Positions 4,706-12,506 of a stretch of 29,344 bases of DNA are shown here, piece after piece. The notes under the pieces were generated by a model. That model made no database searches and was not told the origin of the DNA. It saw nothing but the letters and a program-made list of their open reading frames with translations. The stretch lies in IMG/VR virus record IMGVR_UViG_3300003323_001383; one strand, given 5' to 3'. Positions within the stretch are counted from its first letter, which is position 1. Each line of letters opens with the position of its first letter. The position numbers were made by a program, and so were the translations under genes. Origin of the DNA: a virus.

Positions 4706-6730
4706 ATGAACAACGAGAGCATGGGGGCGGCCGAGACCATCGTCCAGTCCCTTCTGTCCCACGCGGACCACATGTACCACAACCGTCCCGGCGTCGTCGT
4801 CGCGGACGCCCGCTTCAAGGTCGGGGTCCGTTGGGAGTACGTGACGCACCGCGAGAAGTGCCGGACCCACGAGGACGACCCGGTGAGGCCGGAGAAGGAC
4901 GCCGAGGGCAAGAAGACCGGCCGCCTGCTCTGCTCCAAGTGCCAGTCTGACGTCCGGGGGAACGGCCACAGGATCGTCTACCGGAAGGTCAAGGTCGGCA
5001 AGAAGGAGGAGGAGCAGAAGGTGGGCTACCTCGGCCCCGACGGGAAGGACGTCCTCGGCCCGAACGGGCAGAAGGTCGCCGAGTACCGCGAGGCCGGCGT
5101 CTTCCCCGAGATCGCCGTCTGGATGTACGAGCAGGTCGCGAAGGTCTGGGAGCTCGACAACGAGTTCGCCGCCCGCTGGGCGTCGCACGCGTTCGGCGAG
5201 GACCACAAGGACCGGGCCGTGATCATGGCGGCCTTCATGCTCGTCCAGTCCCGCAAGGGGGACCCCGTCCGCGAGGACGGCAAGGTCCTGTTCCACGACG
5301 ACGACTTCCGGGACGTCGGCGAGGCCATGGTCCTGCACCTGAAGGACAAGAGGAAGAAGGACGAGCGCGAGATCTCCCCGCGCATGCTCCTGCGCATTCA
5401 CGAGGTCCTGTCGCTCGACGGGATCGCGGCGGTCAACCGGCGCCTCGGCTTCGGGGTCTCCGCCCGCAGGCCGCCCTTGGGCCGCTGGGCGAAGGCCGTC
5501 GAGAAGTGGCTCCTCTACCGGGAGGAGAACCCGAAGATGCTGGAGGGCCTGGTCAAGTCCGGGCAGAAGTCGACCGTCGTCGAGCTCTGCAAGCGCGTCG
5601 GGTACAAGCCCGCCTCGCCCAGGTTCTTCGAGATCCTCGGCGTCCGGCAGAAGCAGGCGCCGGACGGCAGGCGCACGGTCGCCATCGGCCTCGACATCAG
5701 GTCCGGCGGCTCGTGGGAGGGCATGAGCGAGGAGCAGATCTGCGAGGCGATCGTCAGGGACAAGGTCGGCTACAAGCGGGTGGCCGGCATGGTCCCCAGG
5801 TCCGTCGGCGTCACCCGCGCCGTCATGGCCGCGACGATCGAGGCCGGGGGCGTCTCCGACAAGGAGATGATCATCCTCATGCCGACCCTCGAGGAGCTCG
5901 GGCTCCTGGACGTCCCCTCCGTCAAGGAGAGGATCGAGCGCGCCGTCAAGGGCGCGGACGACATGCGCGCCGCGAACGTCGCGGCCCGGATGCGCTCCCA
6001 GGAGGCGAAGGAGAAGCTCCAGGAGGCCTCGGACAACGCCCTGAAGAAGGCGGTCGAGGAGGTCATGAAGGACATGCGCGCGTACATCCTAGTCGACAAG
6101 TCGGGCTCCATGGAGGGCGCGATCGAGGCGGCGAAGGGATGCGTGACGAAGTTCCTCCAGGGCTTTCCGCCCGAGCGGGTCCACGTGGCGTACTTCGACG
6201 CCGTCGGCCGCGAGGTCAGGATCCCGCACCCGTCCGCGGCCGGGGTCGCCAAGGCCTTCTCCGGCATCACGGCCGGAGGCGGGACCAACTACGGCCAGGG
6301 CGTCCTCGCCCTGAGGGACCACGTCCCGAAGGACGAGGAGGACGTCGTCATGATCTTCATCGGCGACGAGGGCCACGGGATCGGCCGGCTCATCAGGCTC
6401 GGCGAGGGCGACCACCCGTCGTTCGCCGCCGACGTCCAGAGGTCCGGCCTGCGGCCGATGGCGTTCGGGCTCATCCCGATCGTCTCGAAGAACCCGCAGT
6501 TCCCGCGCGGCAACTCCGTCCGGAAGACGGCCGCCGAGCTCGGGATCCCCTGCTTCGAGATCGGCGAGGAGACCTTCGCCGACCCCTACGCCATCCCGAG
6601 GACGATCAGGAACATCATCGCGGCGACCCCGGTCACCGCGAGGGCGACGGCCGCCCCGGTCCGGCGGCAGACCCTGGTCGAGGTCATCATGAAGACCGAG
6701 CTCCTCCGGAAGCCCGCTTGGGCAGCCTGA
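4706..6730 (+). CDS. Ro60/TROVE-like protein with a C-terminal von Willebrand A (vWA) domain and an N-terminal Cys-rich extension
   Basis: AAGGAG RBS 10 nt upstream of the ATG; the C-terminal YILVDKSGSMEG (MIDAS DxSxS)...ITAGGGTNYG...VVMIFIGDEGHG...IPCFEIGEETF...IRNII parallels the human Ro60 vWA region VDVSASM...AGGTDCS...VFIVFTDNETF...CGFDTGALDVIRNF; the N-terminal 130 aa contain CSKCQSD...GHR. Confidence 0.65.
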   Translation: MNNESMGAAETIVQSLLSHADHMYHNRPGVVVADARFKVGVRWEYVTHREKCRTHEDDPVRPEKDAEGKKTGRLLCSKCQSDVRGNGHRIVYRKVKVGKKEEEQKVGYLGPDGKDVLGPNGQKVAEYREAGVFPEIAVWMYEQVAKVWELDNEFAARWASHAFGEDHKDRAVIMAAFMLVQSRKGDPVREDGKVLFHDDDFRDVGEAMVLHLKDKRKKDEREISPRMLLRIHEVLSLDGIAAVNRRLGFGVSARRPPLGRWAKAVEKWLLYREENPKMLEGLVKSGQKSTVVELCKRVGYKPASPRFFEILGVRQKQAPDGRRTVAIGLDIRSGGSWEGMSEEQICEAIVRDKVGYKRVAGMVPRSVGVTRAVMAATIEAGGVSDKEMIILMPTLEELGLLDVPSVKERIERAVKGADDMRAANVAARMRSQEAKEKLQEASDNALKKAVEEVMKDMRAYILVDKSGSMEGAIEAAKGCVTKFLQGFPPERVHVAYFDAVGREVRIPHPSAAGVAKAFSGITAGGGTNYGQGVLALRDHVPKDEEDVVMIFIGDEGHGIGRLIRLGEGDHPSFAADVQRSGLRPMAFGLIPIVSKNPQFPRGNSVRKTAAELGIPCFEIGEETFADPYAIPRTIRNIIAATPVTARATAAPVRRQTLVEVIMKTELLRKPAWAA

Positions 6731-6738
6731 GGCGCACG

Positions 6739-7095
6739 ATGTCGAGGAGGATGGGGCGGGAGCCCCTCCCCTCCCCGGTGTCGCACCGGTCCTACCTCGC
6801 CAGCCCGGCGTTCGGGCTGGCAAGGTCGGGCCGCAGCATCTTCTCGGTCCCGAAGAGGGGGCCGCTCTTCTACGCCGACTTCGAGGCGACGGAGCTCCGG
6901 ATGATGGCCTCCCTGGGCCTCTTCAGGTTCCCGTGCCCCGCCTGCGGAGACCCGCTCCTGGCGAGCGCCCGCTCCGGACGGAGGTCGATGGGGTACCCGC
7001 ACGACCTTGCCGGAAGCCAGGACGACATCCTCGTCCAGCACGCCCTGAAGAAGGGGGACCCCGAGCACGGCGTCCTCCTCGTCATGACGGCGTAG
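6739..7095 (+). CDS. hypothetical small protein with a CPACG motif
   Basis: ATG 9 nt after the previous stop; the same frame extends far upstream as a GC artefact, so support is weak. Confidence 0.3.
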   Translation: MSRRMGREPLPSPVSHRSYLASPAFGLARSGRSIFSVPKRGPLFYADFEATELRMMASLGLFRFPCPACGDPLLASARSGRRSMGYPHDLAGSQDDILVQHALKKGDPEHGVLLVMTA

Positions 7096-7364: not shown

Positions 7365-7658
7365 ATGACCAAAACAAAGCTAGTTCAGGCGCTCTCGGAA
7401 CAGAACGACATCACCCGGGCCCAGGCCAAGGGGATCCTCGACAGTCTCTACTCGATCGCGGAGAACGCGCTGAGGGAGGAGGGGTCGTTCACCCTCCCGG
7501 ACGTCGTGAAGCTGACCCTGAAGGACGTCCCGGCGCAGCCGGAGCGGCAGACGATCAACCCCTTTACCAAGCTTCCTCACACCTCGCCCCCGCGCCCGGC
7601 CTCGAAGAAGGTGAAGGCGTCGCCGGCGGCGACCATCAAGAAGGCGTTCCAGAAGTAG
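7365..7658 (+). CDS. HU/IHF-family nucleoid-associated DNA-binding protein
   Basis: MTKTKLVQALSEQNDITRAQAKGILDSLYSIAENALREEGSFTLPDV...NPFT matches the HU fold signature (MNKTELI..LSK.QAK.ALE.....I...L..G..V.L.GFG.F); ggggaag RBS. Confidence 0.8.
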   Translation: MTKTKLVQALSEQNDITRAQAKGILDSLYSIAENALREEGSFTLPDVVKLTLKDVPAQPERQTINPFTKLPHTSPPRPASKKVKASPAATIKKAFQK

Positions 7659-7661
7659 GGC

Positions 7662-8648
7662 ATGTCCTGGCGGGACCTGCTCCAGAAGGAGGACGAGAGC
7701 CTCGTCCTCCCGTGGACCGGAGGGAGGACCGTCCTCTCGCCGGGCCCCGCGTACCAGATGCAGGGTCCGAAGCCCAGGGAGCACGGGTGGAAGGCTTTCC
7801 AGATAAAGGGAAGGAACGCCTTCCACGTCGGCCCGTCGGACCCGGAGGTCTCCGTCCTCGGAAGGCGCGTCACCGGGTACCTCGTCGGGGACCGCGTGGT
7901 CCCCGACGGGACACGGGTGGCCTCCGGCTACGATGGGATAATCTACTCCTCGGAGGCGGTCCACCTCCTCGAGCCCGGGATCGCCAGGTTCGCCAGGGTG
8001 TCCGCCGGCCGCGTCGCCGACGGGGCGCCCCTGGTCTTCGTCTCGGAGGAGATGCCGCTCGGGCCCGAGCAGGACGTCCTCGCCGCGTTCCAGGACCGGG
8101 CCCCGAACCTGGACGGGATCCGCGACGTCGAGCCAGCGCTCTACGCGGCCTTCGTCCTGGAGGTCGGCCAGAGGGCGTCGGCGGAGAAGGCCAGGGCCGA
8201 GCTCGAGGCGCAGCGCGCCCTGGAGGCCGCCCAGGCGGCCGAGAGGGAGCGGATCGGGAGGCTCGTGGAGCAGCTCTCGGACGCGCGCGGGAGGCGCGAG
8301 ATGGCGGCCTACGACTTCGCCCAGGCCGCGTCGGCGGCGCTGACCCTGGCGGAGGCTGAGTACCTGGACCACCGGGCGTCCGCCAACCGAGGGGAGATGG
8401 TCGTTACCTTCCGCCTCGAGGGGCGGAGGTTCGAGTGCGTGTGCGACGCCAGGACACTCCGGATCGTCGACTCGGGCATCTGCCTCGTCGACCACAGGAC
8501 CGGGGTCCGCGGCGACGACCGTTTCACCCTCGAGTCGCTCCCCGGCGTCATCCGCCTGGCGATGAGGACCGGCAGGCTTCACGTCTTCCGCCGGGTCGAC
8601 GACGACTACGGCGAGCGGGAGCACGATGACGACGACTACGACGACTAG
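7662..8648 (+). CDS. hypothetical protein (328 aa) with an acidic DDDYDD C-terminus
   Basis: ATG 4 nt after the HU stop; coiled-coil-like Ala/Glu/Arg-rich middle. Confidence 0.6.
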   Translation: MSWRDLLQKEDESLVLPWTGGRTVLSPGPAYQMQGPKPREHGWKAFQIKGRNAFHVGPSDPEVSVLGRRVTGYLVGDRVVPDGTRVASGYDGIIYSSEAVHLLEPGIARFARVSAGRVADGAPLVFVSEEMPLGPEQDVLAAFQDRAPNLDGIRDVEPALYAAFVLEVGQRASAEKARAELEAQRALEAAQAAERERIGRLVEQLSDARGRREMAAYDFAQAASAALTLAEAEYLDHRASANRGEMVVTFRLEGRRFECVCDARTLRIVDSGICLVDHRTGVRGDDRFTLESLPGVIRLAMRTGRLHVFRRVDDDYGEREHDDDDYDD

Positions 8649-8649
8649 G

Positions 8650-9021
8650 ATGTCGAAGAAGACCTACAACGAGCGCCTGAGGGTCCTCATGGAGGTGACG
8701 GCCGCGAGGGCCGGGACGGCGGGTTTCAGCGTCGTGGTCCCGCACGCGAGCCCGAAGGAGGTCTGGCGGCTCGACGGGAAGGACATCCGGGACGTCAAGG
8801 CGAGCCTCTCCGGCATGGCCGAGCTCCAGTCCGACCAGGAGTGCGACGAGTGCCTCGAGCTCCTTCCGAGAGGGCACACGGTCGCCGGGAAGGTCATCCT
8901 CTGGGAGAGGGACGGGGGCATACTCCAGTCCCGGTTCCACTGCACCTGCATCCCCTGCTTCGTCCAGGACCGCGGGGGCTACCTGTCCTCAGCCGTCGTC
9001 GCGCTGGTCATGGAGACCTGA
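8650..9021 (+). CDS. hypothetical Cys-containing protein; C-terminus ...VALVMET
   Basis: ATG directly after the previous TAG; CDEC...HCTCIPC cysteines; ends gtcatggagacctga. Confidence 0.55.
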   Translation: MSKKTYNERLRVLMEVTAARAGTAGFSVVVPHASPKEVWRLDGKDIRDVKASLSGMAELQSDQECDECLELLPRGHTVAGKVILWERDGGILQSRFHCTCIPCFVQDRGGYLSSAVVALVMET

Positions 9022-9045
9022 CGCGGGCCGGCGTAACGTCCCCGC

Positions 9046-9390
9046 ATGGACAACGACGAGTGCCCGTCGCGGACGACCTACAACGAGCCGATCCGGCACG
9101 TCGGCAGAGCCAGGACGGCGACGAAGCTGGCGATTCTGGCCATCGCGGCCGCGGCCGTCCTGCTCGTGGTCTTCGCGGAGCGACAGCCGAACCCGAGGAA
9201 GGAGCACGACAAGTACGTCTCCGAGCGGCCGGCCTGGAAGGGCCGGGAGTGGAGGGAGACCGAGGCCGTCCTCTTCGAGGACCCGGGCCACCCCCTCACC
9301 TATCACGTCTGCACCTTCCGGGGGTGCGGGCACTACTTCGAGGACAAGACGGGGACCGACATGGCTCCGGGAAACGGGCAGAAGGAATGA
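9046..9390 (+). CDS. hypothetical membrane protein with one TM helix
   Basis: hydrophobic stretch LAILAIAAAAVLLVVF; its stop overlaps the next start (ATGA). Confidence 0.55.
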   Translation: MDNDECPSRTTYNEPIRHVGRARTATKLAILAIAAAAVLLVVFAERQPNPRKEHDKYVSERPAWKGREWRETEAVLFEDPGHPLTYHVCTFRGCGHYFEDKTGTDMAPGNGQKE

Positions 9391-9791
9391 GCATCGAGGA
9401 CGCGGCGGTCGTCGGCAAGGACGGGACCGTGGTCTACTGGCACTCCCCGGAGAACAGGTCGTACGGGTTCATCCCCGACTCCAGGAAGCTCTGGGACGTC
9501 ATATGGGAGGGGAGGGCCTCCATCGACGGGATCGCCCACACTCACCCGGGCAGGGGCTACCCGAACCCGTCGAAGACGGACCTGACGACCTTCGAGGCCG
9601 TCGAGAAGGGCATCGGGCGCCGCATCAAGTGGTGGATACTGAGCGCGGACTCCTCGGTCCTCCTCGAGTGGAGCGACGAGTTCTCCGGAGGGTACGACGT
9701 CACCAGCTACATGACCGTGGAGCGAGAGCCGGGGTGGATGGCGGCCCTCAGGGCCCGCTCTTTCCCGGAGCTCCAGGCCGCGCCCGCGTAG
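9387..9791 (+). CDS. JAB/MPN(+) JAMM-type metalloprotease-domain protein
   Basis: IAHTHPGRGYPNPSKTD fits the JAMM motif H-x-H-x(7-8)-S-x-x-D (compare RadC HNHPSGDPTPSQAD), with an upstream WEGRAS glutamate; ATGA overlap with the upstream gene. Confidence 0.6.
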   Translation: MSIEDAAVVGKDGTVVYWHSPENRSYGFIPDSRKLWDVIWEGRASIDGIAHTHPGRGYPNPSKTDLTTFEAVEKGIGRRIKWWILSADSSVLLEWSDEFSGGYDVTSYMTVEREPGWMAALRARSFPELQAAPA

Positions 9792-9799
9792 CGCGGCCC

Positions 9800-10522
9800 A
9801 TGTCGCTGGACTGCATCATATCCGTCACCCCGAAGGCCCGAGGGAGGGCCAGGAAGACCGTGAACGGGCCGGTCTCCCGCTTCATCCGGGACGACGAGGA
9901 CTACTACCAGGCCGTCCTCAAGCACCTCAAGGAGTGCAGGGTGTGCGACCCCGCGGAGGCCCTCCGGGGGTTCCTGAAGAACCGGCGGGCCGAGAAGTTC
10001 GGTGGCAGGGTCTCGGGCCTCCTCCTCAACATGGCGGCCAAGTACGTCAAGAACTTCCGCCACCGCGGCGAGGAGATCGACGCCCTCTACAGGGAATACC
10101 TCGTCGGGCATTTCTCCAGCTTCCACGACCTCGAGGAGGCCAGGGGTCTGACGGTCGAGGAGGTGCGCCGGGCCCACTCGATGTACATGACCCGGCACGA
10201 GCGGGAGGTCCGCCTCGCCCTCGAGTCGGAGGCCGGCCCGAAGGAGAAGAAAAAGCGCGCGGAGCCGCACCCGTTCGACGAGGCGCAGAGCCGCATGGGG
10301 TGGAAGGACGAGGTCTGGCCGAGGGAGGCCCTCGGCCGCATCGTCCCGGTCGATCTCCAGTTTTACGCCTCCCTCTCCGAGGAGGAGGCGGAGGACCTCG
10401 GCCCCTACCCCCTCGCCGTCTGGCTCGTCACCCGCCACAGCTGGGAGACGGCCATCCGGGAGGAGTCGGTCATCGCGGAGTACGCGAGGCTCCAGCTCGC
10501 GCAGAACGTCATGGACTCGTGA
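9800..10522 (+). CDS. hypothetical helical, charged protein (240 aa); C-terminus ...AQNVMDS
   Basis: lies between the JAB and E1-like genes; N-terminal Cys residues (DCIIS, ECRVCD); I see no E2 HPN motif. Confidence 0.55.
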   Translation: MSLDCIISVTPKARGRARKTVNGPVSRFIRDDEDYYQAVLKHLKECRVCDPAEALRGFLKNRRAEKFGGRVSGLLLNMAAKYVKNFRHRGEEIDALYREYLVGHFSSFHDLEEARGLTVEEVRRAHSMYMTRHEREVRLALESEAGPKEKKKRAEPHPFDEAQSRMGWKDEVWPREALGRIVPVDLQFYASLSEEEAEDLGPYPLAVWLVTRHSWETAIREESVIAEYARLQLAQNVMDS

Positions 10523-10559
10523 GGGTCCGAGTGTAGCGATAGTGGAAGGAGACACGAAA

Positions 10560-10847
10560 ATGGTAGACATCGTTCAAGTTGGAGGAGGGTTCGTCGGCCC
10601 GAACGAGGCGAAGGTGAACCTTTCCTGGGGAGGGCAGAACTACGACCTCTCCAACCCGGTCCCCCTGGACATCACGGACGCGGACCTCAAGGGCGTCCTA
10701 TCCGAGGTCATCCGCGCGGGCGGCGACGGCATCCCGGCGGACCAGGACGTGGGCCCGATGGCGAACTTCGTCGTCGAGCGGCTCGGCCCGACGGCGAGGC
10801 GCCCGCACAACCTCATCATGGTCCAGCCGAAGACCGAGTTCGGCTGA
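10560..10847 (+). CDS. small protein ending ...KTEFG; candidate beta-grasp / ubiquitin-like partner of the adjacent E1
   Basis: 95 aa; ggaaggagacacgaaaATG RBS; alternating beta/alpha-like pattern; terminal Gly just before the stop; sits immediately upstream of the E1-like gene. Confidence 0.45.
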   Translation: MVDIVQVGGGFVGPNEAKVNLSWGGQNYDLSNPVPLDITDADLKGVLSEVIRAGGDGIPADQDVGPMANFVVERLGPTARRPHNLIMVQPKTEFG

Positions 10848-10893
10848 GGAGGCCGGCCCCGGAGATCCCGGGGCCGAGCCCTTAGGGGTCAGG

Positions 10894-11466
10894 ATGAAGA
10901 AGGTCACGATCGTCGGCGCCGGGGCCCTGGGCTCTCACCTCGTCATGCTGCTTCGGAACCACGCCGACATGAAGGTCGTGGACTTCGACCGCATCGAGAC
11001 GAAGAACACGATGTCCCAGCTCCACGGCAAGAGCACGGTCGGGAAGAACAAGGCAAAGTCTCTCCAGCAGACGATGCTCTTCCTGTTCGGCACGAGGCTC
11101 GAGGCGGTCCCGCACCGGCTCGAGCCGTCGAACGTCAAGGAGCTCCTCGAGGGCTCGGACCTCGTGGTCGACTGCGTCGACGACGGGCCGACCCGGAGGG
11201 TCATCCAGGCGTTCTGCGTGGAGAGAGGGATTGCGTGCCTGCACGGGGCGCTCTCGGCCGCCGGGGCAGACTTCGGCCAGGCCCGGTGGACCGAGGAGTT
11301 CACAGCCCACGACCGGACGGAGGGCGCGCCGACCTGCGAGGACGGCGAGCATCTTCCGTACATCGCGAAGGCCTCGGCGCAGCTCGCCATCGCGGCGCAG
11401 GACTTCCTGCGCGACGGCTCCAAGCGCGGGTTCCTCGTGCAGCGGGGCCCGGTCAAGGAGATCTGA
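10894..11466 (+). CDS. minimal E1-like adenylyltransferase (ThiF/MoeB/UBA superfamily)
   Basis: VTIVGAGALGSHLVMLL...VVDFDRIETKNTMSQL nucleotide-binding motif, then DLVVDCVDDGPTRRVIQAFCVERGIACLHGALSAAGADFGQ; only 190 aa. Confidence 0.8.
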   Translation: MKKVTIVGAGALGSHLVMLLRNHADMKVVDFDRIETKNTMSQLHGKSTVGKNKAKSLQQTMLFLFGTRLEAVPHRLEPSNVKELLEGSDLVVDCVDDGPTRRVIQAFCVERGIACLHGALSAAGADFGQARWTEEFTAHDRTEGAPTCEDGEHLPYIAKASAQLAIAAQDFLRDGSKRGFLVQRGPVKEI

Positions 11467-11553
11467 GGATTGACGGCGGTACGTCCGCCGGTGTAAAGTA
11501 ACGACGTCAGCAGCGAGACGCCAAGCGTCTCCGGGACCAGAAGGTCCCTCTCG

Positions 11554-11682
11554 GGGTTCAAGGAGACTGGGTCTCCACCAATCGGTAAAATTGGCAAATC
11601 ACCCAGAGTCGGCAATCGGGCCAGCGATGGCCCTCCCGAACGGCTCTCACAAGCAAGCTAGGTTCGATTCCTAGGGACCCCA
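11554..11682 (+). tRNA. tRNA-Tyr(GTA)-like gene interrupted by a ~58-nt insertion between the anticodon stem and the T stem
   Basis: 5' ggggttc-aa-ggag-actgggt-ctcc-a-ccaat-cgGTAaa-attgg; 63 nt of insert (11595-11657) ending ggctctcacaagcaagc; then ctagg-ttcgatt-cctag-ggacccc-a, which pairs with the 5' acceptor (one G-U). Confidence 0.55.
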
Positions 11683-11717
11683 CACGCCGGGCCTTCCGGC
11701 GTAAGATCGCAGAGTTC

Positions 11718-11851
11718 GCCCCGTAAGAGGTCTGGGTACCTCATTTCCCTTCCACGGAAACACACAACACCCCAGGCTAGCCAATCGACCCCTCGCGGGG
11801 TCACCAGGCACAGTCTCACATGCATGGATGGTTCGATTCCATCACGGGGCT
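11718..11851 (+). tRNA. tRNA-Gly(TCC) interrupted by a ~61-nt insertion in the variable region, with an encoded CCA
   Basis: 5' gccccgt-aa-gagg-tctgggta-cctc-a-tttcc-ctTCCac-ggaaa; 66 nt (11761-11826) containing caatcgaccc and gtctcacatgc; then gatgg-ttcgatt-ccatc-acggggc-t-cca; acceptor 7/7 complementary across 134 nt. Confidence 0.7.
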
Positions 11852-11880
11852 CCAGAGGCGTTCAGCGCGGCAAAGCACAC

Positions 11881-11952
11881 ATGCAATTAGCTCAAAGGTA
11901 GAGCGTCGGCCTACTAAGCCGGATGTTGCGGCCTCGAAAACCGCATTGCAAT
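11881..11952 (+). pseudogene. degenerate, AT-rich tRNA-like sequence (anticodon ACT, non-canonical 9-nt T loop, encoded t-cca)
   Basis: atgcaat-ta-gctc-aaaggta-gagc-g-tcggc-ctACTaa-gccgg-atgtt-gcgg-cctcgaaaa-ccgc-attgcaa-t-cca; the first acceptor pair is mismatched. Confidence 0.35.
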
Positions 11953-11991
11953 CCAACCTCCCGCTTTCCGAATCGAACGTCTCGTAGTCTT

Positions 11992-12119
11992 GCCCGAAGT
12001 CGGGGTCTGGGACCCCACCAGTTTTTGGAACTGACAAACCCAGCGTCGCGCATCGACCCCCGTGAGAGGGTCAGCAAAGCGGCTCTCACAAGCTTCCGGT
12101 TCGAATCCGGATTCGGGCG
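11992..12119 (+). tRNA. tRNA-Gln(TTG) interrupted by a ~55-nt insertion in the variable region
   Basis: 5' gcccgaa-gt-(c)gggg-tctggga-cccc-a-ccagt-ttTTGga-actga; 60 nt (12035-12094) containing catcgaccccc and ggctctcacaagc; then tccgg-ttcgaat-ccgga-ttcgggc-g; acceptor 7/7. Confidence 0.55.
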
Positions 12120-12146
12120 CAAGGAAAGGCAGAGGTAACGTGAAGG

Positions 12147-12506
12147 ATGAACTCCTCCGTTGATCTGCCTCCGCAAGGCATCCTTCGGCTTCTCGAGGAC
12201 GCGAGGAAGGTGTCCGTGTGGCTCACCGACTGTCACTTCGAGCGAAGGCTCGGGGATCCCTCGGACGTCTCCTTGTTCGACCTCAGCTTCCTGAGAGGCG
12301 ACTTCGCCGAGAGGAACGGGGTCCGGGAGCTCCGCATCGAGGGAGTGACGGTGTGCCATCCGGTGACGAGGCAGGAGCTCGAGCCGTTCTTCGACGGCAG
12401 GGAGGTCGTGAACCTCGTCGGGTGCCGGCACTGCGGCCGTCCTTGCGACCCGGAGCACGGGATCTGCCCGGACTGGGCCGCCGCGGCGTGTGTTCTGTCC
12501 TCGTAG
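12147..12506 (+). CDS. hypothetical protein (119 aa) with a C-terminal CRHCGRPC...C cluster
   Basis: ATG preceded by gtgaagg; its last codons overlap the start of tRNA-Arg. Confidence 0.5.
   Translation: MNSSVDLPPQGILRLLEDARKVSVWLTDCHFERRLGDPSDVSLFDLSFLRGDFAERNGVRELRIEGVTVCHPVTRQELEPFFDGREVVNLVGCRHCGRPCDPEHGICPDWAAAACVLSS

What the first reader, a model, noticed from the sequence alone, without database searches (positions are those of the whole stretch)
9387..11466. Candidate ubiquitin-like conjugation/deconjugation cassette: JAB/JAMM protease - unknown 240-aa protein - small G-terminal ORF - minimal E1
A JAMM-motif protein (HTHPGRGYPNPSKTD) and a 190-aa ThiF/E1-fold adenylyltransferase (GAGALGS Rossmann motif, DCVDDG, GxxGxxGQ) are encoded 1.1 kb apart on the same strand. 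The ORF directly upstream of the E1 ends in ...KTEFG with a free C-terminal glycine. That is what an E1-activated beta-grasp/Ubl carrier would need. JAB + E1 + Ubl triads are established in prokaryotes (Mec/CysO/MoeZ sulfur transfer, lambda tail-assembly gpI/gpK, Bil and CBASS-associated systems). The E1 here is unusually small, and the cassette sits among phage-like genes next to the interrupted tRNAs. The intervening 240-aa protein ends in the VMDS tag and could be the missing E2-like or target component.
Basis: partly seen in the sequence, partly recalled or inferred. Interest (0 to 1): 0.8.

Follow-up and report, generated by a model that had tools for sequence, protein, structure and literature searches.

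The report
Phage ubiquitin-like tagging gene cassette
The window carries a real ubiquitin-like protein, the enzyme that activates it and the protease that trims it; with two upstream genes they form an apparently undescribed five-gene cassette that recurs in huge phages and in myxobacterial and actinobacterial genomes and has no recognisable E2 enzyme.

Summary
The window encodes a JAMM protease (9387-9791), a 95-aa protein ending ...KTEFG (10560-10847) and a 190-aa ThiF/E1 (10894-11466).

The small protein is predicted to have a beta-grasp fold. It belongs to a family of 172 cluster representatives. All 152 that reach the profile end carry an invariant aromatic-Gly end (RPKTxFG). That end is either terminal or followed by tails of 1 to about 190 residues.

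In 12 cassettes without the JAB gene, placed at about nine positions on an E1 tree, the Ubl always ends exactly at Gly. With JAB present, 22 of 27 have a tail (Fisher p=1.6e-6). JAB is therefore the maturase.

The 240-aa ORF is a lineage-specific insert, not an E2. The real conserved partners lie upstream: a 674-aa vWA/MIDAS protein (4706-6730) and a 328-aa protein with an OB-like domain and an invariant Cys (7662-8648). All five genes are colinear in 46 distinct viral loci. They also form a compact operon in Myxococcota, actinomycete, Verrucomicrobia and Planctomycetota genomes.

No known family model covers the vWA protein's N-terminal part, the 328-aa protein or the Ubl. No E2, RING or sulfur-transfer gene was found.

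Best reading: an E2-less Ubl activation and conjugation system. The target and biological role are unknown.

The parts
4706..6730 (+). 674-aa protein: an N-terminal region of about 450 aa with no recognisable family, plus a C-terminal vWA domain with an intact MIDAS motif (D464-x-S466-x-S468 at nt 6095-6109, T527, D554). It is the first gene of the conserved cassette.
   Evidence: Pfam VWA_2 scores 7.6e-8. The MIDAS residues are invariant in a 14-sequence alignment. A profile search against PDB hits only vWA domains. The gene is colinear with the other four in 54 viral loci and in the genome loci.
7662..8648 (+). 328-aa protein ('p328'). It has an N-terminal beta-rich OB-like domain (residues 12-145), a long helix (158-229), a small C-terminal alpha/beta domain with the invariant G-[IV]-C274-L motif (Cys at nt 8481-8483) followed by FxLxSLxGV, and an acidic/aromatic tail. 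It is the second conserved gene. It may be a thioester relay or a target, but this is unproven.
9387..9791 (+). 134-aa JAMM/JAB metalloprotease with E4, H51xH53 and S62xxD65. It is inferred to be the C-terminal maturase of the Ubl and possibly a deconjugase.
   Evidence: See for the domain and motif. When the JAB gene is absent, the Ubl always ends at Gly. The start codon overlaps the stop of the upstream ORF (ATGA at 9387-9390).
9800..10522 (+). 240-aa ORF. It is a lineage-specific insertion between JAB and Ubl, not part of the conserved system.
   Evidence: It has no family hits. Homologues occur only in L005-L007 out of 116 loci. In 35 of 46 distinct viral loci JAB and Ubl are less than 150 bp apart.
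10560..10847 (+). 95-aa ubiquitin-like protein with a predicted beta-grasp fold. Its C-terminal ...Q-P-K-T-E-F-G95 (nt 10821-10844) is followed directly by the stop codon.
10894..11466 (+). 190-aa minimal E1/ThiF-like adenylyltransferase. It has G8xG10xxG13, D30/D32, N38, Q42, K53, D93/D96 and Cys148 (nt 11335-11337). It lacks the N-terminal helix, the NLxRQ arginine and the zinc CxxC pairs.
   Evidence: Pfam ThiF scores 2.6e-23. NCBIfam ThiF/MoeB/UbaA hits are all far below their cutoffs. PDB matches are Uba4, MoeB, ThiF and Cap2. Residue conservation was measured in 100 distinct homologues.
8626..9390 (+). Two small ORFs (131 aa at 8626-9021 and 114 aa at 9046-9390) between p328 and JAB. They are lineage-specific fillers, not core genes.
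   Evidence: They have no family hits. Homologues occur only in L005-L007.

Best explanation
The region is the 3' part of a self-contained five-gene cassette: vWA/MIDAS protein, OB-plus-Cys protein (p328), JAMM protease, ubiquitin-like protein (Ubl) and minimal E1.

Shown or strongly supported by comparison: the Ubl is a beta-grasp protein whose functional end is the invariant aromatic-Gly. The JAMM protease is needed only when residues follow that Gly, so it trims the precursor. The catalytic residues of JAB, E1 and MIDAS, and one Cys of p328, are conserved across phage and bacterial copies.

Inferred: the E1 binds ATP-Mg and adenylates Gly95. The acyl group then passes to the conserved Cys148 of the E1 loop. 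From there the Ubl is transferred without a UBC-type E2, either directly to an amine on a target, as in archaeal SAMPylation and Thermus TtuB/TtuC, or through the invariant Cys274 of p328. The vWA/MIDAS protein acts as receptor or substrate adaptor, for example by binding an acidic residue of the Ubl or the acidic tail of p328. JAB may also reverse conjugates.

The cassette's patchy spread between huge phages and bacteria with complex life cycles suggests a role in phage-host or phage-phage conflict. That role is speculative.

For: C-terminus: 152 of 152 representatives that reach the profile end have [FYLV]-G. Of these, 26 end there, 69 have 1-5 extra residues and 57 have longer tails. The same pattern is seen directly in DNA for 49 distinct viral genes.

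Natural experiment: 12 of 12 JAB-less cassettes have a tail-less Ubl, against 5 of 27 with JAB (p=1.6e-6). The JAB-less cassettes sit at about nine places on an E1 NJ tree.

Linkage: all five genes are colinear on one strand in 54 viral loci (46 distinct) at 45-55% identity, despite variable inserts. The cassette is compact in bacterial chromosomes whose flanks are unrelated cellular genes.

Catalytic residues are conserved. No rhodanese, PP-loop, MoaE, ThiG or desulfurase family appears among the precomputed Pfam annotations of neighbouring genes in five loci or in the scanned upstream flanks of four bacterial loci.
Against: There is no biochemical evidence for adenylation, a thioester or a conjugate.

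The E1 lacks the canonical Arg of NLxRQ (Ser here; Ser/Ala/Thr/Asn in 100 homologues, never Arg) and the N-terminal helix that supplies the arginine finger in MoeB.

Confidence: 0.6

Rival explanations
1. The cassette is a sulfur-carrier system. The E1 adenylates the Ubl, which is converted to a C-terminal thiocarboxylate and donates sulfur, as in ThiS/ThiF, MoaD/MoeB, CysO/MoeZ/Mec+, QbsE/QbsC/QbsD or TtuB/TtuC. The sulfur might go to thiolation of the many phage tRNAs.
For: The E1's best matches are ThiF, MoeB, MoeZ and Uba4. JAMM trimming of carrier tails is known for CysO and QbsE (my own knowledge; discussed in PMC1779556). In phages the cassette sits inside tRNA arrays. tRNA genes lie 45-84 bp downstream of the E1 in loci L108, L109 and L078.
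Against: The end is [FY]-Gly, never Gly-Gly. No rhodanese, desulfurase, PP-loop, MoaE or ThiG family appears among the annotated neighbours. About half of the genome loci have no tRNA within 6-8 kb. The conserved partners are a vWA protein and an OB/Cys protein, which have no role in known sulfur relays. All curated sulfur-E1 models score far below their cutoffs.
Confidence: 0.15
2. The activated Gly is joined to a non-protein acceptor, such as a lipid amine as in Atg8-PE, a small molecule or an RNA end. Alternatively the Ubl serves mainly as a cleavable N-terminal chaperone that delivers the variable proteins fused behind it.
For: The aromatic-Gly end followed by a short removable tail resembles Atg8/LC3/GABARAP (my own knowledge). 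Between 12 of 49 (DNA-level count, more than 5 residues) and 57 of 152 (representatives) of the Ubl genes carry in-frame C-terminal tails longer than 5 residues, including HNH, wHTH and zinc-ribbon modules. p328 has OB-like and weakly dsRBD-like features.
Confidence: 0.12
3. The cassette is a virion or tail-assembly module like lambda gpI (Ubl) and gpK (JAB-NlpC), with no conjugation.
For: The JAB's best PHROG hit is a 'tail protein' family (phrog_5556, 5.9e-5). TAPI/TAPK are a known phage Ubl plus JAB pair (PMC1779556).
Against: Lambda-type modules have no E1 and lie among tail genes. Here there is an E1, no NlpC domain and no tail genes nearby. The same cassette also sits in bacterial chromosomes among ordinary cellular genes.
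Confidence: 0.03
4. The adjacency has no functional meaning. The genes are unrelated and merely inherited together in one phage lineage.
For: Phage gene order is often conserved by descent, and variable genes are inserted between the five.
Against: The same five genes occur as a tight operon in unrelated chromosomal contexts in several bacterial phyla. JAB presence co-varies with Ubl tails. The distant megaphage clade keeps vWA, p328, JAB and E1 in all six of its loci and a detectable Ubl in two of them, although the Ubl has moved.
Confidence: 0.02

Closest known systems
Archaeal SAMP/UbaA/HvJAMM1 sampylation and Thermus TtuB/TtuC/JAMM (E1-only Ubl conjugation; my own knowledge)
   Same: The parts list matches: a small beta-grasp Ubl with a C-terminal Gly, a single ThiF/MoeB-type E1, a JAMM protease, and no E2 or E3.
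   Different: Those Ubls end in Gly-Gly, and their E1s are full-length (about 270 aa or more, with zinc sites and an N-terminal helix) and also serve sulfur transfer. Here the end is [FY]-Gly and the E1 has 190 aa without these elements. Two further obligatory partners (vWA/MIDAS and p328) are present. NCBIfam SAMPActivE1UbaA scores 54.8 against a cutoff of 450.
Bacterial antiphage Ubl systems: Bil (BilABCD), type II CBASS Cap2/Cap3 and Bub (PMC10557695, PMC10097602, PMC11601596)
   Same: All are E1 plus Ubl or Ubl-like substrate plus JAB-type peptidase operons spread by horizontal transfer. The E1 resembles the Cap2 E1 domains (PADLOC E1-E2, 1.4e-13; PDB Cap2).
   Different: Those systems all have an E2 (separate or fused) and, for CBASS, a CD-NTase. 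Bub works through oxyester intermediates and a serine protease. Here there is no E2 domain, no PADLOC hit for the other four proteins, and the cassette is carried by the phages themselves.
vWA-MoxR 'FtsH ternary' conflict systems with an attached Ubl-conjugation module (Kaur et al. 2020, PMC7159879)
   Same: A vWA protein is combined with JAB, E1 and Ubl genes, and JAB is predicted to release the Ubl from a larger polypeptide. These systems are enriched in bacteria with multicellular habits.
   Different: Those systems include MoxR AAA+, FtsH, a Ubl-E2 fusion, a RING-type E3, EAD1 adaptors and caspase-like effectors. None of these is in this cassette.
Lambda/T1 tail assembly proteins gpI (TAPI, Ubl) and gpK (TAPK, JAB-NlpC) (PMC1779556)
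   Same: Both are phage-encoded pairs of a JAB and a Ubl with a conserved C-terminal Gly followed by extra sequence.
   Different: The lambda pair has no E1, has an NlpC domain and lies in the tail gene cluster. None of that applies here.
Eukaryotic Atg8/LC3 and UFM1/UBA5 (my own knowledge)
   Same: They share an aromatic- or aliphatic-Gly end hidden by a short tail that a dedicated protease removes, and UBA5 is a comparatively small E1.
   Different: No sequence relationship was detected. Those pathways use E2s (Atg3, UFC1) and cysteine proteases rather than JAMM. The resemblance is an analogy only.

Membership tests
E1-like / ThiF superfamily (Pfam PF00899) | Sequence score above the curated threshold | tested here: met
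   The score is 82.8 bits against a cutoff of 28.1, E=2.6e-23.
E1-like / ThiF superfamily (Pfam PF00899) | Rossmann GxGxxG, ribose-binding Asp, conserved Lys and Mg-binding Asp of DxxD(N) | tested here: met
   G8/G10/G13, D30/D32, K53 and D96 are 98-100% conserved in 100 distinct homologues; D93 is conserved in 96 of 100.
E1-like / ThiF superfamily (Pfam PF00899) | Arg of the NLxRQ motif and the N-terminal arginine-finger helix (MoeB R73 and R14; my own knowledge) | tested here: not met
   The motif is KNTMSQ here. The position is Ser/Ala/Thr/Asn in 100 homologues and never Arg. The protein starts 2 residues before the first beta-strand.
E1-like / ThiF superfamily (Pfam PF00899) | Cysteine in the crossover loop for an acyl-thioester or acyl-disulfide | tested here: inconclusive
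   Cys148 in (A/P)-T-C-E-x-G is present in 95 of 96 aligned sequences.
E1-like / ThiF superfamily (Pfam PF00899) | Two CxxC zinc-binding pairs of MoeB/ThiF-type E1s | tested here: not met
   They are absent. The protein ends 42 residues after Cys148.
Curated sulfur-carrier or SAMP E1 equivalogs (ThiF, MoeB, MoeZ, UbaA, PRTRC ThiF) | NCBIfam score above the model cutoff | tested here: not met
   The best score is 67.5 bits against a cutoff of 275 (ThiF). UbaA scores 54.8 against 450 and PRTRC scores 38.7 against 145.
JAMM/JAB metalloproteases | E...HxH...SxxD metal and catalytic motif | tested here: met
   E4, H51, H53, S62 and D65 are present. H, H, S and D are invariant in 84 homologues.
JAMM/JAB metalloproteases | Pfam Prok-JAB score above the gathering threshold | tested here: not met
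   The score is 18.5 bits against a cutoff of 25, E=0.0019. PADLOC JAB models give at best 0.0025.
Ubiquitin-like beta-grasp modifiers | Beta-grasp fold | tested here: met
Ubiquitin-like beta-grasp modifiers | Conserved C-terminal Gly, exposed directly or after processing | tested here: met
   All 152 representatives that reach the profile end have x-Gly there. Tails are present or absent in step with the presence or absence of JAB.
Ubiquitin-like beta-grasp modifiers | Sequence membership in a described Ubl family (ubiquitin, ThiS, MoaD, Prok_Ub, Multiubiq and others) | tested here: not met
   There is no Pfam, NCBIfam, PHROG or PADLOC hit.
Ubiquitin-like beta-grasp modifiers | ATP-dependent activation and covalent attachment to a target | not testable with these tools
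   This needs biochemistry.
Bil, CBASS type II and Bub antiphage ubiquitination-like systems | An E2 (UBC-like) protein or domain, and a CD-NTase for CBASS | tested here: not met
Sulfur-carrier systems (ThiS, MoaD, CysO, QbsE, TtuB) | Gly-Gly C-terminus | tested here: not met
   The ends are FG (129), YG (17), LG (4) and VG (2), with no GG.
Sulfur-carrier systems (ThiS, MoaD, CysO, QbsE, TtuB) | A linked sulfurtransferase or acceptor enzyme (rhodanese, desulfurase, ThiG, MoaE, CysM, TtuA) | tested here: not met
   None appears among the Pfam-annotated neighbours in five loci or in the bacterial flanks. Host enzymes cannot be excluded.
Lambda gpI/gpK tail assembly pair | JAB fused to NlpC/P60, located in the tail gene cluster, no E1 | tested here: not met
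   The JAB is a stand-alone 134-aa protein, an E1 is present, and the neighbours are tRNAs, a sigma factor and HU.

The most novel reading that the evidence does not exclude
The five genes form a complete ubiquitination-like pathway built from non-homologous parts. p328 would be a new, non-UBC fold that carries the Ubl as a thioester on its invariant Cys274, acting as an E2 analogue. The vWA/MIDAS protein would act as the E3 or substrate receptor. Huge phages would use the pathway to tag host or rival-phage proteins, while Myxococcota and actinomycetes use the same cassette as an immune or stress system.
Probability: 0.22. Interest if true: 0.88.

Novelty: new variant of a known kind. Interest (0 to 1): 0.72.

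Why it matters
Ubl conjugation in prokaryotes is currently known from archaeal SAMPs, Thermus TtuB and three bacterial antiphage families (Bil, CBASS Cap2/Cap3 and Bub).

This cassette would add a fourth, compositionally different family. It has the smallest E1 I know of in such systems (190 aa, without the canonical arginines or zinc sites). It has a new Ubl family with an Atg8-like aromatic-Gly end and ubiquitin-like fusion precursors. It has no UBC-type E2, and it has two obligatory partners from unknown families.

The cassette is carried by huge phages as well as by bacteria. This raises the possibility that viruses of bacteria, like eukaryotic viruses, run their own protein-tagging machinery.

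The JAB-loss versus tail-loss pattern already gives a clean, testable rule for the protease's role. Isolate genomes of Paraliomyxa miuraensis, Virgisporangium ochraceum and a Spirillospora strain provide cultivable sources for experiments.

Tried and rejected
1. The 240-aa ORF as E2 or target. Rejected because it has no family hits and is present only in three close relatives.

3. The vWA protein as a Ro60/TROVE RNA-binding protein. Unverified. Pfam and PDB profile searches see only the vWA domain. The only hint is a weak phrog_850 'RNA-binding protein' hit (0.0018). Rfam finds only tRNAs in the window and no Y RNA.

4. A near-identical sequenced phage. None was found by megablast. Only Virus Rctr197k and an uncultured 595-kb phage carry relatives. 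The ThiF-like gene of Xanthomonas and Erwinia jumbo phages sits in another context.

5. A recurrent 'cargo' domain behind the Ubl. None was found; the tails are heterogeneous.

6. An obligatory tRNA link. Weakened, because half of the genome loci have no tRNA nearby.

7. The promoter and terminator scan was uninformative.

8. Six completed literature searches and the papers I read found no description of this cassette (papers read). The library lacks most subscription journals, for example Burroughs et al. 2009 on E1-like enzymes.
Full report
OBSERVATION. The protein from 9387-9791 has a complete JAMM signature (E4, H51-x-H53, S62-x-x-D65). Family models see it only weakly: Pfam Prok-JAB gives E=0.0019, below its threshold, and PHROG 5556 gives 5.9e-5. 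In 84 distinct homologues the His, His, Ser and Asp are invariant and the Glu is present in 77 of 79 (numbers these residues three higher). The protein from 10894-11466 is an unambiguous ThiF/E1 domain (82.8 bits against a cutoff of 28.1). The ORF at 10560-10847 ends ...PKTEFG followed by a stop. The window has about 67% G+C, 34-35 tRNA genes and no close DNA relative among sequenced phages.

THE REAL UNIT IS FIVE GENES. I used tblastn of the E1, then profile searches of 59 viral loci fetched with an E1 alignment. These show the same order on one strand in 54 loci (46 distinct): a vWA protein of about 620-675 aa, a protein of about 320 aa (p328), JAB, Ubl and E1. Amino-acid identity to the window is 45-55%, and the contigs are 100-600 kb. 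The spacers vary and hold unrelated genes. JAB and Ubl are usually adjacent (median gap 51 bp). In the window these genes lie at 4706-6730 (vWA), 7662-8648 (p328), 9387-9791, 10560-10847 and 10894-11466. The 240-aa ORF, the two small ORFs at 8626-9390 and an HU-like gene (7365-7658) occur only in three close relatives (L005-L007). They are inserts, not components.

JAB IS THE MATURASE. A scan of 185,579 species genomes with the p328 alignment returned 47 loci. Most carry the whole cassette as a tight operon. In 12 complete cassettes the JAB gene is missing, and p328 and Ubl are only 25-175 bp apart. In all 12 the Ubl stops exactly at the Gly. In 27 cassettes with JAB, 22 have a tail (Fisher p=1.6e-6; 4e-7 with the viral loci included). 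On a neighbour-joining tree of the E1 the JAB-less cassettes fall in about nine separate places. The association is therefore replicated, not a single inherited event. The tree has no bootstrap support values. This shows by comparison that JAB is needed when the Gly must be uncovered. Whether it also removes the Ubl from targets is an inference.

THE E1. The Rossmann motif, D30/D32, N38, Q42, K53, D93/D96 and Cys148 in a (A/P)-T-C-E-x-G loop are 94-100% conserved in 100 distinct homologues. The family departs from textbook E1s in three ways. The Arg of NLxRQ, which aligns with Uba4 'SNLHRQ', is Ser, Ala, Thr or Asn and never Arg. The N-terminal helix with the arginine finger is absent. The zinc CxxC pairs and most of the C-terminal domain are also missing. 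All curated ThiF, MoeB, MoeZ, UbaA and PRTRC models score far below their cutoffs. The Cap2 E1 domains of CBASS are comparably similar. I therefore regard ATP binding as very likely, adenylation as likely and the Cys148 thioester as plausible but unproven.

DISTRIBUTION. Besides huge phages (including Virus Rctr197k and the 595-kb LR756511), the cassette occurs in Myxococcota MAGs and in contigs of 0.5-1.3 Mb. It is also found in the isolates Paraliomyxa miuraensis, Virgisporangium ochraceum and Spirillospora sp., and in Verrucomicrobia and Planctomycetota. The genes scanned in the upstream flanks of four of these chromosomal loci are ordinary and mutually unrelated: TPR, YcaO, Ser/Thr kinases, AraC, PCMT, Hsp70-like and Omp85. 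The five genes therefore travel as one unit. Some 'genome' loci with tRNA arrays are probably mis-binned or integrated phages. PADLOC 2.0 knows none of the proteins except through the E1's resemblance to Cap2.

MECHANISM AND RIVALS. The best reading (confidence about 0.6) runs as follows. JAB trims the precursor. The E1 adenylates the Gly and probably holds it on Cys148. The Ubl is then passed to a target without a UBC E2, either directly, as in archaeal sampylation, or through Cys274 of p328. The vWA/MIDAS protein acts as receptor or adaptor. A sulfur-carrier role (0.15) is suggested by the E1's nearest relatives and by the tRNA setting. It is weakened by the absence of a Gly-Gly end, by the lack of any sulfur-transfer partner and by the many cassettes far from any tRNA. 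A non-protein acceptor or a fusion-chaperone role (0.12), a lambda-type tail-assembly role (0.03) and meaningless adjacency (0.02) are less likely.

COMPARISON AND NOVELTY. The cassette works like the E1-only SAMP and TtuB systems and shares themes with Bil, CBASS Cap2/Cap3, Bub and the vWA-MoxR 'FtsH ternary' systems. It fails the membership tests for each of them: no E2, no Gly-Gly, scores below cutoff, and different partners. Six completed literature searches and five papers read gave no description of it, and the library is incomplete. I rate it a new variant of a known kind, with interest 0.72. The role proposed for the 240-aa ORF does not, and the cassette boundaries were too narrow.

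Noticed in passing
window 11881-11952 (+); window 6959-7044 (-): Rfam reports a tRNA at 11881-11952 that ARAGORN did not list. ARAGORN's only minus-strand call (tRNA-Gly, 6959-7044) is absent from the Rfam list. The stretch 11466-12497 after the E1 has no convincing ORF.
   Followed up: no
window 7365-7658 (+): An HU/IHF-like DNA-binding protein (Pfam Bac_DNA_binding, 2.6e-14) lies between two tRNAs and p328. It is present only in the closest relatives.
   Followed up: partly
L003 6168-6734: A 188-aa phage protein with a ribosomal L7/L12 C-terminal domain (1.9e-9) is inserted between p328 and JAB.
   Followed up: no
L001 4037-4537; P0147, P0162, P0179, P0224 and others: Many Ubl genes continue in frame past the FG into 30-190 further residues, like ubiquitin fusion proteins. 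One tail is an HNH nuclease, one a winged-helix domain and several are zinc ribbons.
   Followed up: partly
L002 (LR756511), L061-L065: A divergent megaphage clade keeps vWA, the p328 Cys domain, JAB and an E1 with an N-terminal extension (KFHHEEIYRG...). Its Ubl (...RPQAVFG) lies upstream of the vWA gene in L061 and L065 and was not found in the other four loci.
   Followed up: partly
L065 19471-19812: A second, unrelated ThiF-like gene lies about 9 kb downstream of the cassette E1.
   Followed up: no
L091 3374-6179: The vWA and p328 genes are present, but no JAB, Ubl or E1 is detected in the 4.6 kb downstream. This may be a two-gene variant or a split cassette.
   Followed up: no
L108 10324-10396; L109 5845-5920 and 10271-10340; L078 9912-10488: tRNA genes sit 45-84 bp after the E1 gene even in large bacterial contigs, which may mark integration sites. 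About half of the genome loci have no tRNA within 6-8 kb.
   Followed up: partly
window 8601-8645 (p328 C-terminus); L002, L061, L062: p328 proteins often end in an acidic/aromatic tail (DDDYGEREHDDDDYDD, NNYDEDDW, EHDYDDDDDD), reminiscent of protein-recruiting tails or MIDAS ligands.
   Followed up: no
L069 (Xanthomonas phage PhiXhv-12) 8932-9615: Cultured Xanthomonas and Erwinia jumbo phages carry a ThiF-like gene annotated 'thiamine biosynthesis protein' (35% identity over 61% of the E1). It follows an 892-aa hypothetical protein near the ligase and topoisomerase genes, without the other cassette genes.
   Followed up: partly
L005 650-1222, L006 1-281, L007 1504-2085 (- strand): A sigma-70 family gene is conserved just upstream of the cassette region in the window's closest relatives, and a response-regulator receiver gene lies downstream in L005 and L006.
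   Followed up: no
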